From: Scenedesmus sp. PABB004
Taxonomy: Eukaryota
Assembly: GCA_014905635.1 (NCBI GenBank)
Contig: JABVCE010000008.1
Coordinates: forward strand, 248,001 to 312,000
Length of the DNA: 64,000 nt
Direction of reading: 5' to 3'
Shown here: in pieces, positions 1 to 38,473 of the stretch
How the letters are laid out: each line of letters opens with the position of its first letter
Numbering within the stretch: position 1 is the stretch's first letter
Position numbers and translations under genes: made by a program
Notes under the pieces: model-generated
Database searches by the model: none
Told to the model about the DNA's origin: nothing
What the model saw: the letters and a program-made list of their open reading frames with translations, nothing else

Positions 1-3000
1 CGCGGCCTCGACCTCTGCCTCGGCGCCCGCACCGGCATTGAGGCGGTCGGCGAAGGCCGGTGAGATGGGACTGAGGCGGAGGTAGCCGCTGTACACCAGT
101 GGCGCAGCGCTCAGCGGTTCGGTGAGGGCCACCGACACGCGGAGCCGCTCCGTCGCGCCCGGCGCGAGCACGAGCGCGGCGACGTCGCGCGTGTCGGCGT
201 TGTTGCGGAAGCCCACGCGCGCCGCCGCGCGCAGCGTGGCCTCCTGGCCGTACCACGCGCCCGCGGTCGACACCGCGAGCGCGGGGTCGTGTCCGAGGCG
301 GTACGCCACGGGGCGGTCCCCCGTGTTGGTCAGCGACAGGCTCACGGTCGACGACCGGCCGGTCGGCAGCGGCAGGAACGCGGGCGCAACGGTCACGGGG
401 TTGTCGATGGCGGATCTCACTTGGATGAGCCCTGCGGGGCGCGGCGCAAAGGGGGCGCGTTGGGGAGGGGCGCGCGCGGCGCGAGGCCGCAGCGGCGCCG
501 CTGCGGCCGGCGAGAGCCGGTCAGAGAGCTAGCGGCCGCGCCGCGCGCCGCCGGGCCCGCCCCTCGGCCCCGCACCCGCGCCCGCCACCACGACGGGGTG
601 CATCCAGCGCTCGTCGCCCTTGACCGCCACGGGCGCGGCGGTGGAGATGAAGGAAGCCTTGGCCGCGTCGAGCACGGCGCGGCCGCCGGCCAGGCCCCCG
701 CGCCGCGCCTGCCGCCAGAGCGCGAGCGCGCCCGACGCGTACGGCGTGGCCCTGGCGGGCGCGCGGCGCGGGGCGCGCGGTGCGCGGCGCGCGGCGGTGA
801 CGCAGCCGCGGCGCCGTGCTCTGCGCGCCGCCGCGCCCCCCGCATGCTTGCCCGCCCTCCTCCTACGCGCGCGCGCGCGCGCGGCTGTCCCCCTGCTCAC
901 ATGCTGGTGCCCTGATAGAGCGCGAAGTTGCCGCCGGGGATGCTGGACAGGATGCCGCCGCCGGGCGCGGAGAAGGTGGGCAGCATCCTCAGGTCGGCGG
1001 TCGGGCCCCAGCTGCTGAACCACGACGGCGCGTCGGCGTTGGGGTTGCGGAAGCGCTTCGACGCGACGCGCGTCACGCGGATGCGCTCGCCGCGCTCGAG
1101 CGCGCGCGCGAGCGCGAGCCCCGTGTCCAGGTCGATGGCAAACTGGACGGCGCGGCGCGGCGGCGGCGTGCGCGTCGCTCGCCGGCCGGCGGCTGGTCGC
1201 ACGCGCGCCGCTCCCGCGCAGCCCGCTCCCGCGCGCCCGCCGCTCCCGCGCGCCGCGCCGCGGTGCGGTGCGCGCACCATCTGTGGCGCGGTGCGGCCGA
1301 CGCTCTCGTCGATGTTGAGCGCCTGCCTGAAGGCGGGAAAGGGCCGGTTGTCGTAGAACACCACGCCCACAGCGCCCGCGGCGAGCAGGAAGGACGCCTT
1401 GTCGCTCTCGCTGGGCGGTGGGCCGGGTGCGCGGGACGGGAGGGGGGGGGTGAGTGAGAGAGAGGGGCGCGCACCGGGCTGCGAGCGGCGGTGCCGCCCG
1501 CGCGCTGCGAGGCGCCGGCCGGCCAGCCCCTCGGCCAGGCCCCGGGCGGCCCCGCCGCCGCGCGCTCACGCGCAGTCGCCGCTCGGCACGAGCGCGATGC
1601 GCCCCGCCACCGACGCCGCCGACACCGGCGCGCACGCGCTGCGCGGGCTCGGCAGCGCGAGCGCGCTCGGCAGCGGCGGCAGGCGGTTGGCCATGAGGGC
1701 GCGCGCGGGGGCGTCGACCACGCTGGTGGCCTCGCCGCGCACGCGGATCGTCGAGTCGATGGTCAGCGCCGCGCCAAAGCTGAGGCTGTTGTCGGTCGAG
1801 CCCACGCTCACAGCGTCGGCCTCGGACGCGGGCGCACCGTACGACCAGAGCCCGTCGGCCCCCGAGTTGCCCGCGGCGGCGACGACGATCACGCCCTGCC
1901 TGCGGCGCGGCGGCGGCGGCGGAGCGCTCAGCGCGCCGCCCCCCGCGCCGGCTCTGGGGGGCGCTCTGCTGCCCGCACGCCCACGCCCACGCACCGCGCG
2001 AGGCGCGTCGTGAACTCGACGCCCAGCGGCGCGGCAAAGTTGGTGCCCATGCTGAGATTGATGATCTGCATGCGGTCACGCACCGCCGCCTCGAGCGCGC
2101 TCAGGAGCCACTCGTTGGTCGTCGTGCCTGGCCGCGGCGCGGCGCGGCGCGGCGACGCGGCGCGGTTCTTGAGTGGCCGCACAGCACGCAGCACGCGCAG
2201 CGCACAGCACGCGGCACGCGCAGCGCACGGCACGCGCCGCACCGTCGCAGGCAAACACGCGGTACGCGCCCAGCACGGCCTCCGGCGCGACGCCCTGCCA
2301 GGGCACGGGGCTGGCGCCGCCGCGCGCGTCTCCGGCGATGATGCCCGCCACGTGCGTGCCGTGCGACCCGCACACATCGTACTGCACGCAGCGCGGGGCG
2401 CCGGGCGGCGAATGAGGCCGGTCAGGCGCAGCGGGGCGCCGCAGCCCGTGCGCGCCGCCGCGAGCTCGCTCGAGCGGCGCAGCCCCGCCACACACGCACC
2501 GTGATCTGGTCGCCGTCGGTAAAGTCGCGCCCCGCGACGACGCGGCAGCGCCCGCCCGCGCCGATGCGGGCGCAGGCGCCAAACGCGGGGTGGGTGTAGT
2601 CGAGGCCGTCGTCGATGACCGCGACGCGCACGCCCGCGCCGCTGTAGCGCGCGTGCGCCGCGCCCACGAGCGTCGCCTCGTCCGCGCCGCCCCACACGCT
2701 CGGCTCAGCGGCGCTGCCGGCCGCGTCGGCGGCGGGGCCGGCCGCCGCGGCGCCGACGGCCTCGTCCAGGGTGCGGCCGCGCAGCTCGTCGAGCGGGGCG
2801 GAGAGCTTGAGCACCGGCCGCACCGCCCGGACCGCGGCGTCGCTCCGCAGCAGCTCCGCCAGGCGCGCGCCGTCCTCGGCGCTGCCCACGCCGACGGCGA
2901 GGCCCGTCATGACGTGGCCAAAGGCGCTCACGCGCGTCAGGGCGATGCCCGCGGCCGCCGCGGCGGCGCGGAGCTGCTCGCCCTTGGCCGCCGCGGCGCC

Positions 3001-33663: not shown

Positions 33664-36056
33664 ATGCTGCTGGGCGGCGTGCGCGCCTGCGCTGCGCTGG
33701 TGCTGTTGTTGGCGGGCAGCACGGCGCCGTCGGCGCAGCACCGCACGGCGCCGGTGGCAGCTGCAGCGGATGCAGCGCCCGCTGGCGCCGGTGCCGCCGC
33801 CGGCGCGCAGCTGGGCCTGGGCTTGCAGGACGGCCTGGACGTGATGTACGGGCTGCAGGTGCGGCCGGGGGCGGCGCTCCGCGCGGACCCCGAGCGCAGG
33901 GCGCACAGCGCGCGCGGCACGCACGCGTCGCCGCCGCCGCCGCAGGGCGCGGCCGCCGACGCCGTCGAGGCCTGGGCCGCCCCGGGCGCGCTGGCGCCCG
34001 ACGAAGCAGACGCGCTGCCACCGCCGCCAGACGTGGCGCCGCCGCCGGCGCCCGCGCCGGCGCCCGCGCCCGCGCCGCTGCCGGTCGAGCCGGCGCCGGC
34101 GGGGGGCGCCGCCGCCTCCGCGCCCGGCAGGCCGAGCGGCGCCGGCGGCGATGCTGGCTACGACAACGTTGACTTTGACGACGACGACGACAACAGCAAC
34201 GACCCGGCCGGGCAGGACGGCTGGGAGGCCTGGCTCGGCGACGAGCCGTACGGGCCGTTTGACGGCCTCGTGCCGGACGACGAGTACGGCGACGAGTACG
34301 GCGAGGGAGGCGACGGCGACGGCGGCGAGGACGGCGAGGCAGGCGGAGAGGCTGGCGGCGCGGCCGACCCCGGCCTCGCGGCGCCAACAGGCAAGGGCCC
34401 CAAGCACCCGGGCAGGCCGGGGCCGGAGGTGCCCACGCAGCCGGGCAACCCGGGGCCGCGGCCGCCGTGCAAGCGCACGGACGGGCTCGTGCAGTCGGGC
34501 GACATCTGCGTCTGCCTGCCAGGTGCGCGCGTGCTCGCTCGGCCAGCGGCGCTCCGCGCCCCGCGGCGCCCCGCGCTCGACACCCCGAGCCCCGCCGCCG
34601 CCGGGCCCGCGCGCGCGCAGGCTACGGCGCACGCCCGGGGTTGCAGCGCTGCGCGCGCTGCCTGACCGGCTGGGCGAGCCCGGGCGGCGCTGTCTCCACG
34701 ACGCGCTGCCGGCCCTGCCCCGAGTTCACCACCTCCAACAGCGACAACACCGCCTGCGGTGCGGCGCCGCGCGGACGGCGGCGGCCGCCGCGGCCTGCCG
34801 CGCGCCGCTCGCCGCCCCGCCGCGCGTCAGCGACGCGCGCCGCCGCCCGGCCGCAGTGTGGTTTGCGCAGCAGCCCGACGTGAACGACGCGCTCTGCTCG
34901 CGCTGCTTCGACCCGCGCACGCCCTTCCAGCCGCCCGCGTGCTGCCCCAAGGGCCAGGCGCGGCCGCGGCGCGCGCGCGCCGCCCAGCACGCGCGCGCCC
35001 GCCGCCGGGCCCCACGCCGCCGCACCGCCGCGTCGGGGCACCCGGCCGCCGCGGGGCGCCGCAGGTTTGCTGCGGCGAAGTCGGCTGCTGCTCGCCGGAC
35101 AACTGCCACGTCAACGCGACCACCAACTTTCAGCCCTACTGCTGCGACGGCGGGTAGGGTTTAGGTTTTGGAGTTTTGGGTTTACGGTCTAAACCCTGCC
35201 CCTAAACCCTAACCCTAAACCCTAACCCTTAACCCTTAACCGTAGATTTTGTCCCAACGACAACACCGGCCCCCTCGATTGCTGCCCGGGCGGGCAGACC
35301 TGCGTCAACCTCACGAGCTCGGTGCGCGCCCGCGCGGCGCGGCGCGGCGCGGCGCAGCGCGGGTGCCGCCGGCGCGCCGGCGCACGCCCGCCAGCCGGCC
35401 GCCGCCGTTGCCGCGCGCGCGCGCGCAGACGCAGCGGTGCTGCCCGATCGGTGGCGAGTGCCGCATCAGCGGCAGCACGACCGTTGATGCGGTGTGTTGC
35501 AACCCCAGCTACGAGTACTGCTTCATCACCACGCGTGACACCTCTGGCACCGTCATCACCGCGCGCCCGACCTGCTGCAATGACGCGCAGGCGCGTCGGC
35601 GCCGCGCCGCCCGCCGCGCCGCGCCAACGACTCGCGGCCGCCAACGACTCGCGGCCGCCGCCGCCGCGCGGTTGCCCGCAGGTGCCCTGCCCCGCCGATG
35701 GGCGCTGCTGCGCGGTGGGGTCGTACTGCGTCAACGCGGAGCGCTGCTGCACGTCAATCGACTCTGACATCTGCCTCGTCGCGTCGTCAACCTCCACGAC
35801 CAGCTTTGTGCGCGGCTGCTGCGACCCGCCCAAAAAGTGCATCGCCGGGTCGGGCGGCACGGTCCGCATCTGCTGCGAGGCGACCGCCAACTTCCTGTGC
35901 GGCTCGAGCTGCTGCAACTCGACCGTCTCGGAGTGCCTCTACGAATCGATCTGCTGCTCGGCCAGCAAGGTCTGCACGAGCCCGCTGGACTCGAGCATCA
36001 AGGTCTGCTGCGCGTCCACGCAGACGTGCAACGCCGCCACGGGCGTGTGCTCGTAG
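33664..36056 (+). CDS. Secreted protein with Pro-rich and acidic N-terminal half and CC-rich Cys repeats
   Basis: Signal MLLGGVRACAALVLLLAG; PAPAPAP and DDDDD tracts; CARCLTGWASPGG..CRPCP; many CC motifs (CCPKG, CCPGGQTC, CCPIGGEC, CCASTQTC); in-phase exons; TAG at 36056. Confidence 0.75.
35154..35245 (+). repeat. Interstitial telomere-like repeats, head-to-head, forming a whole intron
   Basis: Degenerate TTTAGGG units (GTAGGGTTTAGGTTTTGG..GGGTTTACGG) followed by CCCTAAA/CCCTAA units, ending in CGTAG. Confidence 0.9.
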
Positions 36057-36484: not shown

Positions 36485-38473
36485 ATGCCGGCGCGGCGGC
36501 ACGCCCTAGCGGCAGTGGCTCTGCTGCTGCTGGCCGCGGCGCCGCGGAGCGCGCCGCAGCAGGCCGGCGGCGCGGTCGGCGCCACGCTGGCGGGCCTGGC
36601 GGCGGGCGGGGTCGGTGGCGCGCTGCAGCAGCAGCCGCGCCCCCACCGGCCGCGCCGCCAGCCGCCGCCGGTGGAGCAGCAGCAGCAGGAGCAGCCGCGG
36701 GAGGTGCAGGCGGTGTGGCTGCAGGACGGCCCGGCGCCGCTGGTCGCGTGGGGCGGCGGCGCCGGCGACGCGCTCGAATCGCCGGACCAGCAGCTCGGCG
36801 GCGACGGCGCCAAGCACAAGGGCAAGACGCCGCCGGCGGTGCCGGGGCCGCCCTTCAGCGGCGGCCGCCCGCCGTACCACCCAGTGTGCGAGCGCTTCCC
36901 GGGGTGCCAGTTCTGCTCCGCGGCCAAGTGCACGGCATGCTGGTACAACTACGGCCTCGCGCGCTTCGTGCTGCGCAACGGGCGCTGCCGTGAGTGTGCG
37001 CGGCGGCTGGGCGGGCGCAGCGCGCGCAGCACGCGGCCCCCGACGCTCGCCCGCCCCCCGCGCCGCGCCGCGCGCAGAGTGCCCGCCGGGCTTTGGCCGC
37101 TGGCCGCTTGTCAACGGCTCCGACCCGACGCAAGACTACCTGCGGGGCGGCAAGGGCATCATTCTGCCGCCCATCGAGGGCCTCCCCAGCTGGGCGGGCC
37201 GCTGCCTGCCCTGCCCCGAGGGCTTCTTCTCGTCCGGCGGCCCCATCGGGCAGGCGCAGTGCGAGAAGTGTGCCAACGGCACGACCAGCAACCGCGCCTC
37301 GCCGCGCTGCAACAGTGAGCGCGCGGCCGCACGGCGCGCGGCGCGCGGCGCACGCGGCGCGGCCAGCAGCCGCCGACGCGCGGCGCGGTGGCGTCGCCCT
37401 GCTGCCGCCCCTCGCGCGCAGTCAACACCGGGTGCCAGCCCGGCGAGGAGCCGGACTTTTACTCGCAGCCGGCGAGCTGCGTGGCGTGCCCGACCGGCTC
37501 GTTCCAGCCGCACCAAAACAGCACAAAGCCGTGCACGCAGTGCCCCGCGGGCTACACGACCAACCAGGCGGACGGGCAGCCCAAGGTGTCGCGCACGCAG
37601 TGCAACGGTGAGCCCGCCAGCGGCGGCGGCGCCAGGCCAGGCGCGGCGCCGGGCCCGGCCCGGGCGCCAGCGCCGCCGCCGCCGTTGACGCCACCGACGC
37701 CGCCGCCGCTGCCACCACGCCCGCGCGCAGTGGTGGTGTGCCCCGGGGGCTGGGAGCTGACCACGTTCCGGCCGCCCAACCCGCTCGCGGACGAGGCGTG
37801 GTGGTGCAAGGAGTGCACGGGCACCAACTACTCGCTCCCTGGGTTCGCCGACCAGGGCACGCGGCAGCCGCGCTGCAAGCCCTGCCCCTACCCGTCGGTC
37901 CCCAACCTCAACCGCACCAAGTGCTTCGAGTGTGAGCGCTGGCCGCGCGCGCGGCGCGGCCGGGGCGGTCGAGCGCGTGGGCGCCGCGCAGCCAGGCCCC
38001 GCCCCCGCGCCCGCGCGCGCACGCCGCGCGCACGCACGCCGCCGCCACCGCCGCTGCCCGCGCGCCCTCCTCCTCCAGGGATCTGCCCGCCGCCGGACGC
38101 GTTCACGATGACCTGCCGCGGCGCGACCAACGTCACGTGCACGCCCGGCGCCGACGCGACGTACCTGCCCTCCTTCTGCACCGCGTCGCCGCCGGGCGCG
38201 GTGATCGAGTGGTTCAAGGGCTACCCCAGCTCGCCGGGCACGCCAGACACGAGCACGGTCATATACCCGCCCCTCGCGGCCTGCCCGAGCACTGCTAATA
38301 CGACAGAGGTCTACTACCCCTTTATCACAGAGTTCAACGGCCGCACCGACTGCCTCTGCACCAAGGACAAGGTCAACTGCCTCTTCGTGAACGGCATCGT
38401 CGTCCCCGGCGACTACGAGCCAATCACGCAGGCCAAGCCGACCGTGTCGGTGCGCGTGACGTCGCCGCCGTGA
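36485..38473 (+). CDS. Secreted Cys-rich protein with ephrin-receptor-like/furin-like repeats
   Basis: Signal MPARRHALAAVALLLLAAAP; GCQFCSAAKCTAC; CLPCPEGFFSSGG..CEKCANG; CVACPTGSFQP..CTQCPAGYTT; CKECTGTNYS; TGA at 38473. Confidence 0.8.

What the first reader, a model, noticed from the sequence alone, without database searches (positions are those of the whole stretch)
35154..35245. A spliceosomal intron built from head-to-head telomere repeats
Seen: a 92-nt AT-richer island whose left half is degenerate TTTAGGG and right half CCCTAAA/CCCTAA, so it can fold back. It begins and ends with GTAG. Removing it joins ..YCCDGG to FCPNDNTGPLDCCPGG in frame, while retaining it gives an immediate TAG. 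The donor GT lies in a telomere-like unit and the CCCTAAC variant offers a CTAAC branch site. No other intron here looks like this. Inference: intron gain by telomerase addition at both ends of a double-strand break followed by fusion, or a tiny introner-like element with telomeric ends.
Basis: partly seen in the sequence, partly recalled or inferred. Interest (0 to 1): 0.75.

Follow-up and report, generated by a model that had tools for sequence, protein, structure and literature searches.

The report
Intron made wholly of telomere repeats
A 92-base predicted intron in a gene of a GC-rich eukaryote, probably a green alga, is built end to end from two facing runs of the cell's own chromosome-end repeat, most likely the scar of a break in an exon that telomerase capped on both sides and the cell rejoined, which would make telomerase a source of new introns.

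Summary
The element is real. It is 92 nt at 47% GC in a 78% GC genome: a G-strand arm, then a C-strand arm of this genome's telomere unit (TTTAGGG), with GTAG at both ends. An ab initio model predicts exactly this intron. It is the most telomere-like of 1,197 sampled introns and the only one whose first and last four bases match. It is not isolated. 45 of 1,197 introns carry telomere-like arms, G-strand in the 5' half and C-strand in the 3' half, and 25 of 30 other head-to-head junctions lie inside ordinary predicted introns. In metagenome contigs, 18 of 75 head-to-head arrays are flanked by direct repeats (control 0.2%), the mark of a staggered break capped on both sides. Best reading (0.5): intron gain by two-sided telomerase addition at a staggered exon break. 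Main rivals: an old intron overwritten by repeats (0.22), or an insertion not spliced at these sites (0.15). An introner origin is not supported. Splicing and the empty ortholog could not be tested: no RNA run and no homolog were found.

The parts
35154..35245 (+). Predicted phase-2 spliceosomal intron made wholly of telomere-like repeats
   Evidence: Predicted at exactly these ends by a self-trained gene model with a strand-symmetric intron state; removal keeps the frame, retention gives a stop. No RNA evidence.
35155..35191 (+). G-strand arm, degenerate TTTAGGG units (TAGGG, TTTAGG, TTTTGG, TTTTGGG, TTTACGG)
   Evidence: Local alignment score 44 to (TTTAGGG)n; units listed
35189..35244 (+). 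C-strand arm, degenerate CCCTAAA units; not a mirror copy of the G arm
   Evidence: Score 75, the highest C arm among 1,197 introns; units differ from those of the G arm
35154..35157 (+). GTAG, left copy: supplies the donor GT; candidate target-site duplication; its TAG is in register with the repeats that follow
   Evidence: Sequence; only 1 of 1,197 introns has first four = last four bases, 0.008 expected
35242..35245 (+). GTAG, right copy: supplies the acceptor AG
   Evidence: Sequence; TAG acceptors are 7 of 1,197
35222..35226 (+). CTAAC, candidate branch site about 20 nt before the acceptor
   Evidence: the CTRAY consensus is recalled, use not tested
35209..35213 (+). Second CTAAC, alternative branch site
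35065..35153 (+). Upstream exon (Cys-rich)
   Evidence: its last 38 nt score as coding, +7.3, against -6.3 to -1.4 at the 5' ends of five neighbouring introns
35246..35321 (+). Downstream exon (Cys-rich)
   Evidence: its first 52 nt score as coding, +8.0, against -7.1 to +1.5 at the 3' ends of five neighbouring introns
33664..36056 (+). Host gene: single-copy, Cys-rich protein of no named family; 505 codons open from 33946 to the stop; 5' exons uncertain
   Evidence: no Pfam family at cut-off for 7 exons; no homolog

Best explanation
A new intron made during repair of a double-strand break in an exon. Steps: (1) a staggered break at a GTAG site leaves GTAG on both fragments (inferred); (2) telomerase adds repeats to both 3' ends, priming on TAG on the left (inferred); (3) the two short telomeres are joined, giving G arm then C arm (arrangement shown, cause inferred); (4) the product is spliceable, with GT from the left GTAG, AG from the right GTAG and CTAAC variants in the C arm (signals shown, splicing predicted only); (5) splicing removes both GTAG copies, so one extra G in the run before the donor restores the frame and the protein ends up one residue shorter (inferred). 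It is the rare exonic outcome of a process that in this genome usually lands in existing introns.
For: Exact ab initio prediction and coding-like flanks. Unit matches the real telomere, and 7-mers outnumber branch-like 6-mers in introns, CTAAACC 50 hits against CCTAACC 4. Arms are not mirror images, so not a fold-back. Both signals are atypical: GTA donor 6 of 1,197, TAG acceptor 7 of 1,197, whereas 43 of the other 44 arm-bearing introns start GTG or GCG and all 44 end CAG, and five neighbouring introns of the gene are 87-93% GC with standard ends. First four = last four bases in 1 of 1,197 introns. No ordinary intron remnant. The region lacks the background class (1 of 120 window introns). 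Mechanism seen elsewhere: 18 of 75 metagenome head-to-head arrays have flanking direct repeats, 0.2% in permuted pairs, 1 of 75 inverted; exact abutting repeats of 8 nt or more in 12 of 73, 0.7% control; a 22-nt duplication around L146 in this genome. G-then-C loci outnumber C-then-G 31 to 8. 9 of 12 distinct chromosome ends begin at CTAG or CAG (by eye, no control). The C arm supplies the predicted TAG acceptor in 4 of 32 loci examined and in L144. Weak hint: CC-to-C spacing is 4 here and the mode in the protein is 5 (7 of 15 units).
Against: No intron-less ortholog or paralog was found, so gain is not shown. No RNA. 25 of 30 other head-to-head loci lie in introns with ordinary ends, and L043 is almost wholly telomere-like between a standard donor and a CAG acceptor, so overwriting of introns can go far. 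A 4-nt repeat is short: with 6 nt of slack, repeats of 4 nt or more arise in 26% (metagenome) and 47% (own genome) of permuted pairs, and the first-equals-last test was made after seeing the feature. Target duplications are not enriched in this genome as a whole (0 of 27 exact at 8 nt or more; 1 of 29 at score 15 or more, control 1.4%). The model needs an extra G. The right arm starts after CTAC, a poor primer, and TACGG also occurs as a variant unit inside the G arm. Splice signals are weak (only 20 of 1,197 introns score lower), a 182-nt alternative scores slightly higher on signals alone (3.5 against 3.0), and the donor is predicted to be base-paired. Two other units in the protein also have spacing 4. 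In the metagenome cases read in detail I found no confirmed new intron: L200 is an array absorbed at an existing acceptor.
Confidence: 0.5

Rival explanations
1. An old ordinary intron was overwritten. Telomere-like tracts accumulated from both ends, as in many introns of this genome, until no ordinary sequence and neither standard splice signal remained.
For: 45 of 1,197 introns carry arms with the same polarity: G arms 14 of 14 in the 5' half, C arms 30 of 32 in the 3' half, p 5e-10. 25 of 30 other head-to-head loci are in ordinary introns; L043 is nearly complete. Acceptors can be replaced by the C arm, and a duplication can move an acceptor (L146). The length, 92 nt, is like that of its neighbours (91-107 nt).
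Against: Needs both splice sites replaced, while 43 of 44 other arm-bearing introns keep a GTG or GCG start and all keep CAG. Does not explain the matching GTAG ends. The background class is nearly absent from this window and clustered on other contigs.
Confidence: 0.22
2. A telomere-array insertion into an exon that is not spliced at these sites: either the allele is disrupted, or a larger 182-nt intron (35116-35297, GC to CAG) is used and 30 codons are lost.
For: The 182-nt pair keeps the frame and scores 3.5 against 3.0 on splice signals. The donor is weak and predicted paired. No expression data.
Against: The flanks that the larger intron would discard still score as coding. The arms are degenerate, which suggests some age, yet the rest of the 505-codon frame is open. 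The insert begins GT, ends AG and restores the frame exactly.
Confidence: 0.15
3. A small introner or non-autonomous DNA transposon with telomere-like inverted ends and a 4-nt target duplication.
For: Complementary arms, a 4-nt direct repeat and co-opted splice sites resemble introners (recalled); fold z -2.9.
Against: The only full-length match in the genome is itself; other matches are partial, to telomere arrays (150 of 364 rows listed). A whole-element pattern finds 1 hit. The 30 other head-to-head loci share no sequence beyond the unit (by eye). The arms are not mirror copies.
Confidence: 0.05
4. The arms were selected as an intron-bridging hairpin, like the (AC)m-(GT)n introns of fish.
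For: Complementary arms at opposite ends; raw co-occurrence odds ratio 7.6.
Against: Co-occurrence disappears when tested within loci: 9 observed against 6.4 expected, p 0.13; 3 against 2.2, p 0.37. Most arm-bearing introns have one arm only (3 of 45 have both).
Confidence: 0.05
5. Assembly misjoin of two contig ends.
For: No read spanning the element was seen (skipped it).
Against: The arms are far more degenerate than the terminal arrays, and the flanks form one continuous frame with exact GT-AG ends.
Confidence: 0.03

Closest known systems
Short interstitial telomeric sequences inserted by telomerase during double-strand-break repair (Santagostino et al. 2020, PMC7215372; passages and section 2.5 read)
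   Same: Short arrays of the species' own unit at internal sites; in-register bases at the break (31 of 40 horse loci); occasional direct duplication of the target.
   Different: There, no human ITS is in an exon, the 31% in introns fits random placement, and head-to-head cases come from chromosome fusion (2q13) or from inversions. Here two arms face each other directly, appear to form a whole intron, and across the genome the unit is concentrated in introns (50 of 52 hits) with strand polarity.
Intron gain during repair of staggered breaks (Farlow et al. 2011, PMC3020277; Li et al. 2014, PMC4202315; Yenerall and Zhou 2012, PMC3443670; passages read)
   Same: A new intron with weak signals and a short direct repeat at its ends (4-12 bp in Daphnia).
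   Different: The filler there is captured or unexplained DNA; 'telomer' occurs 0 times in the main text of Li 2014 and Yenerall 2012 and once, in a reference title, in Farlow 2011. There the repeat has one copy in the exon; here both GTAG copies lie inside the intron, so the gain would not be scarless.
(AC)m-(GT)n bridged introns of fish, and G-triplet/C-triplet introns of humans (Lin et al. 2016, PMC4691745; passages read)
   Same: Complementary simple repeats at opposite intron ends, G-rich 5' and C-rich 3' in the human case.
   Different: Those co-occur across introns beyond chance; here they do not once locus is controlled, and the unit is the telomere 7-mer.
Plant telo-boxes (Gaspin et al. 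2010, PMC3022908; passages read)
   Same: Short interstitial plant-type telomere motifs near genes.
   Different: In Arabidopsis and rice they are enriched in 5' UTRs and not in introns (Table 1); here 26.4 per 100 kb in predicted introns against 1.6 in intergenic or UTR sequence.
Introner elements (recalled; PMC4540971 seen as a search listing only)
   Same: An insertion that supplies or co-opts its own splice sites.
   Different: Single copy, no family.

Membership tests
Spliceosomal GT-AG intron | GT and AG ends whose removal restores the frame | tested here: met
Spliceosomal GT-AG intron | Spliced in RNA | not testable with these tools
   No RNA holder listed
Short ITS inserted by telomerase at a break | Unit equals the species' telomere | tested here: met
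Short ITS inserted by telomerase at a break | Empty orthologous locus | tested here: inconclusive
   No homolog found; related contigs do not cover the site
Short ITS inserted by telomerase at a break | In-register bases at the primer ends | tested here: inconclusive
   Left TAG is in register, right end is not; the empty allele is unknown
Intron gained in staggered-break repair | Short direct repeat at the ends | tested here: inconclusive
   GTAG twice, 1 of 1,197, but only 4 nt, both copies intronic, and common by chance with slack
Intron gained in staggered-break repair | Absent from outgroups | not testable with these tools
   No eukaryote relatives are held and the metagenome scan found none
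Introner element | Many similar copies at unrelated sites | tested here: not met
Introner element | Conserved terminal inverted repeats | tested here: not met
   Arms share the unit but not the order of variants
Bridged (repeat-paired) introns | Complementary repeats co-occur across introns beyond chance | tested here: not met
   p 0.13 and 0.37 within loci; small numbers
Bridged (repeat-paired) introns | Splicing depends on the pairing | not testable with these tools
   Needs a minigene
Chromosome-fusion ITS (2q13 type) | Flanked by subtelomeric sequence of two chromosomes | tested here: not met
   Flanks are two halves of one reading frame, 283 kb into a 1.46-Mb contig

The most novel reading that the evidence does not exclude
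Telomerase is a recurrent builder and remodeller of introns in this lineage. Breaks capped on both sides and rejoined leave a G-arm/C-arm insert with a target duplication that is pre-adapted to splicing (GT early in the G arm, CTAAC variants and a terminal TAG in the C arm). In exons it occasionally makes a whole new intron, as here; at or near splice sites it is absorbed and leaves the polar tracts seen in about 4% of sampled introns.
Probability: 0.35. Interest if true: 0.82.

Novelty: new variant of a known kind. Interest (0 to 1): 0.62.

Why it matters
Where the sequence of a new intron comes from is a long-standing open question outside introner-rich genomes. Break repair is a proposed route, but the inserted DNA usually has no known source. 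An intron made wholly of the telomere unit names the source and the enzyme, and makes sharp predictions: an empty allele in a relative, and new introns at cut sites in telomerase-proficient but not telomerase-null cells. The genome-wide polarity of telomere tracts at intron ends is a second result, measured here, that does not depend on this one intron being new.

Tried and rejected
RNA: no RNA holder listed; this is no evidence on expression. DNA runs X1 and X2 hold a near-identical organism at depth under 3 over the last exon only; 35010-35385 has no cover and the repeat was skipped, so nothing follows for the intron. One X2 contig shows a change to a stop near the end of the last exon; one contig at depth 2.9, disregarded. 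Homologs of the host: none in two protein searches with the last exon, the own genome, metagenome contigs, Pfam (one weak hit at E 0.38, below cut-off) or the ESM Atlas; only the last exon was used in most, and these blanks do not show absence. One search was translated in the wrong frame and not used. Introner family, fold-back duplication, chromosome fusion and selected bridging were tested and not supported. A pure branch-point origin of the C arms was considered and is disfavoured by the excess of 7-mers. Local GC and GC3 do not explain where arms cluster (rho -0.08 and -0.12, not significant; GC of motif-free introns rho -0.27, p 0.03). A search for new introns among 27 of the 80 metagenome loci (picked by eye for GC content or duplications) gave candidates with a splice site inside the duplication (L158, L218, L230) but no confirmed coding context. 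No second wholly telomeric intron with non-standard ends turned up; degenerate ones could be missed. The systematic sample is 60 stretches (600 kb) from 12 contigs plus 60 kb of the window, smaller than planned, and over-represents mid-sized contigs.

Full report
Observation. The 92-nt element at 35154-35245 is as described: 47% GC in a window of about 78%, GTAG at both ends, a G-strand arm of about 37 nt and a C-strand arm of about 56 nt. Removing it gives a continuous Cys-rich frame; keeping it gives a stop at once. The genome (G000, 40 Mb, 80 contigs) ends its contigs in TTTAGGG (275 of 470 units). That it is a green alga is my inference from this unit, the GC content and the gene style; I did not test it. 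The fold-back is modest (z -2.9, centroid -7.7 kcal/mol).

Is it an intron? I trained a small gene model on 60 genome stretches of 10 kb and 60 kb of the window, with a strand-symmetric intron state and short splice matrices so that arm polarity could not be built in. It predicts this intron at exactly these ends. Four splice pairs in the region keep the frame; a 182-nt pair scores slightly better on signals (3.5 against 3.0), but the flanks it would discard score as coding (+7.3, +8.0) unlike true intron ends. No RNA run was listed and two DNA runs do not cover the site. All intron calls below are predictions.

How unusual is it? Among 1,197 predicted introns with flanking exons of 40 nt or more and length up to 600 (of 1,380 predicted), it ranks first for telomere content. 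Its GTA donor (6 of 1,197) and TAG acceptor (7 of 1,197) are both rare, and it is the only intron whose first and last four bases match (0.008 expected; a test made after the fact). It has no second copy.

The genome-wide background. TTTAGGG on either strand falls in predicted introns 50 times of 52, in intergenic or UTR sequence twice and in exons never: 26.4, 1.6 and 0 per 100 kb. 45 of 1,197 introns have an arm; outside the window, 14 of 14 G arms lie in the 5' half and 30 of 32 C arms in the 3' half. A strict pattern finds 31 G-then-C loci and 8 C-then-G loci in the genome. Of the 30 besides this one, 25 lie inside predicted introns that keep ordinary sequence and a standard-type donor, and 5 lie outside (C2:448 judged by eye). 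L043 is almost wholly telomere-like but keeps a standard donor and a CAG. Arms cluster: 15 of 59 introns on C10 and 12 of 92 on C8, against 1 of 245 on C1 and 1 of 120 in the window. Once locus is controlled, G and C arms do not co-occur beyond chance, so selected bridging is not shown. The C arm's terminal TAG is the predicted acceptor in 4 of 32 loci examined (32 of the 41 hits) and in L144.

Mechanism from other organisms. After dropping 2 duplicates and 3 with short flanks, 18 of 75 have flanking direct repeats at score 12 or more, against 0.2% of permuted pairs and 1 of 75 in inverted orientation. With two more probable duplicates dropped, 12 of 73 have exact abutting repeats of 8 nt or more, against 0.7%. 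That is what a staggered break, telomere addition to both ends and rejoining would leave. In this genome only L146 shows it clearly: 22 nt spanning an acceptor are duplicated, so the array was absorbed into the intron; the set as a whole is not enriched. L200 in a metagenome contig shows the same absorption. I confirmed no new intron among these contigs.

Most likely history. A staggered break at GTAG in an exon; telomerase extends both ends (9 of 12 distinct chromosome ends here begin at CTAG or CAG, by eye and without a control); the ends are joined; GT and AG come from the two GTAG copies, the branch from a CTAAC variant; one extra G keeps the frame at the cost of one residue. The CC-to-C spacing at this spot is 4 where the protein's mode is 5 (7 of 15; two other units have 4), a weak hint. 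Shown: arrangement, unit identity, frame, rarity, background, duplications elsewhere. Inferred: telomerase, order of events, splicing, gain. I put this at 0.5, overwriting of an old intron at 0.22, non-splicing at these sites at 0.15, introner 0.05, selected bridging 0.05, misjoin 0.03. For the background polarity I think two filters are likely, neither tested: telomerase primes on G-rich or AG ends, and intron 3' halves are C-rich on the sense strand (G-C skew +0.06 to -0.26 from first to last fifth); and G arms near an acceptor would add competing AG sites. The scarcity outside introns and the clustering by contig remain unexplained.

Comparison with print. It works like a short ITS (PMC7215372, passages and section 2.5) and like intron gain in break repair (PMC3020277, PMC4202315, PMC3443670, passages); membership of either needs an empty ortholog, which I could not obtain. 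It fails the tests for introners, bridged introns (PMC4691745, passages) and fusion ITS. Plant telo-boxes are not intron-enriched (PMC3022908, passages). Passages of PMC8226300, PMC6549138, PMC13685798, PMC8287931, PMC6410037 and PMC6726248 held no intron made of telomere repeats. Ten searches listed no title or abstract start describing one; I saw listings only for the rest, the library lacks most subscription papers, and I read no supplements (those of Li 2014 list the new introns and could bear on this). Earlier notes of this scan report similar introns with target duplications in marine microbes and head-to-head arrays in rotifer introns; they are unchecked AI notes seen after my analysis and add no independent support, but they mean the idea is not unique to this window.

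Verdict. A real and extreme case; a new variant of known kinds; interest 0.62. One RT-PCR and one PCR in a sister strain would decide it.

Noticed in passing
G000 contigs C8, C10, C12, C2, C9, C14 against C1, C13, C24, C67, C76: Telomere-like intron arms are strongly clustered by contig: 4.7-10 array starts per Mb against 0-0.8, often in several introns of one gene; many host genes looked like conserved housekeeping enzymes (recalled from translations, not tested).
   Followed up: partly
L146 (G000:C29:221790-223190), about 660-727: Head-to-head array between two copies of a 22-nt stretch spanning an acceptor; the acceptor seems to have moved downstream.
   Followed up: yes
L043 (G000:C7:902921-905958), 1448-1567, minus strand: 120-nt predicted intron almost filled by G and C arms but with a standard donor and CAG; best candidate for an ortholog test, since the gene looks conserved (PEP carboxylase-like, recalled).
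   Followed up: partly
L148, L149, L150 (C52:467-519, C52 about 14900, C64 about 530) and L009 (C2:443-525): Clean head-to-head arrays outside predicted genes, three of them a few hundred bases inside chromosome ends; the C52 and C64 copies share their flanks.
   Followed up: no
G000:C76:1199888-1204644 (L277): Four matches about 1,571 bp apart of a short G-then-C motif; the first lies next to a tRNA-Pro(CGG) gene, suggesting a tandem tRNA array.
   Followed up: partly
Sampled introns: About 22% of predicted introns (263 of 1,197) start with GC, far above the usual share; prediction only, and the starting matrix allowed 15%.
   Followed up: no
L228 (metagenome contig), 172-250: A near-perfect telomere-like palindrome between two frames that read like bacterial ATP synthase beta and epsilon (recalled, not tested): possibly a bacterial intergenic repeat.
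   Followed up: no
L200 (metagenome contig), 540-720: Array between two copies of a 58-nt stretch spanning an acceptor, in a gene whose introns look like introner elements (recalled).
   Followed up: partly
L158, L218, L230 (metagenome contigs): Arrays whose target duplication contains AG-G, so that splicing would restore the original sequence exactly; coding context not confirmed.
   Followed up: partly
L005/L008 and L010/L011: Pairs of contig ends (C68 and C3 left; C69 and C2 right) share the same subtelomere and proximal repeat variants.
   Followed up: no
window 36485-38470: The next gene has a similar build (Pro/Gly-rich start, then Cys-rich modules) but no match to the exons around the intron.
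   Followed up: no
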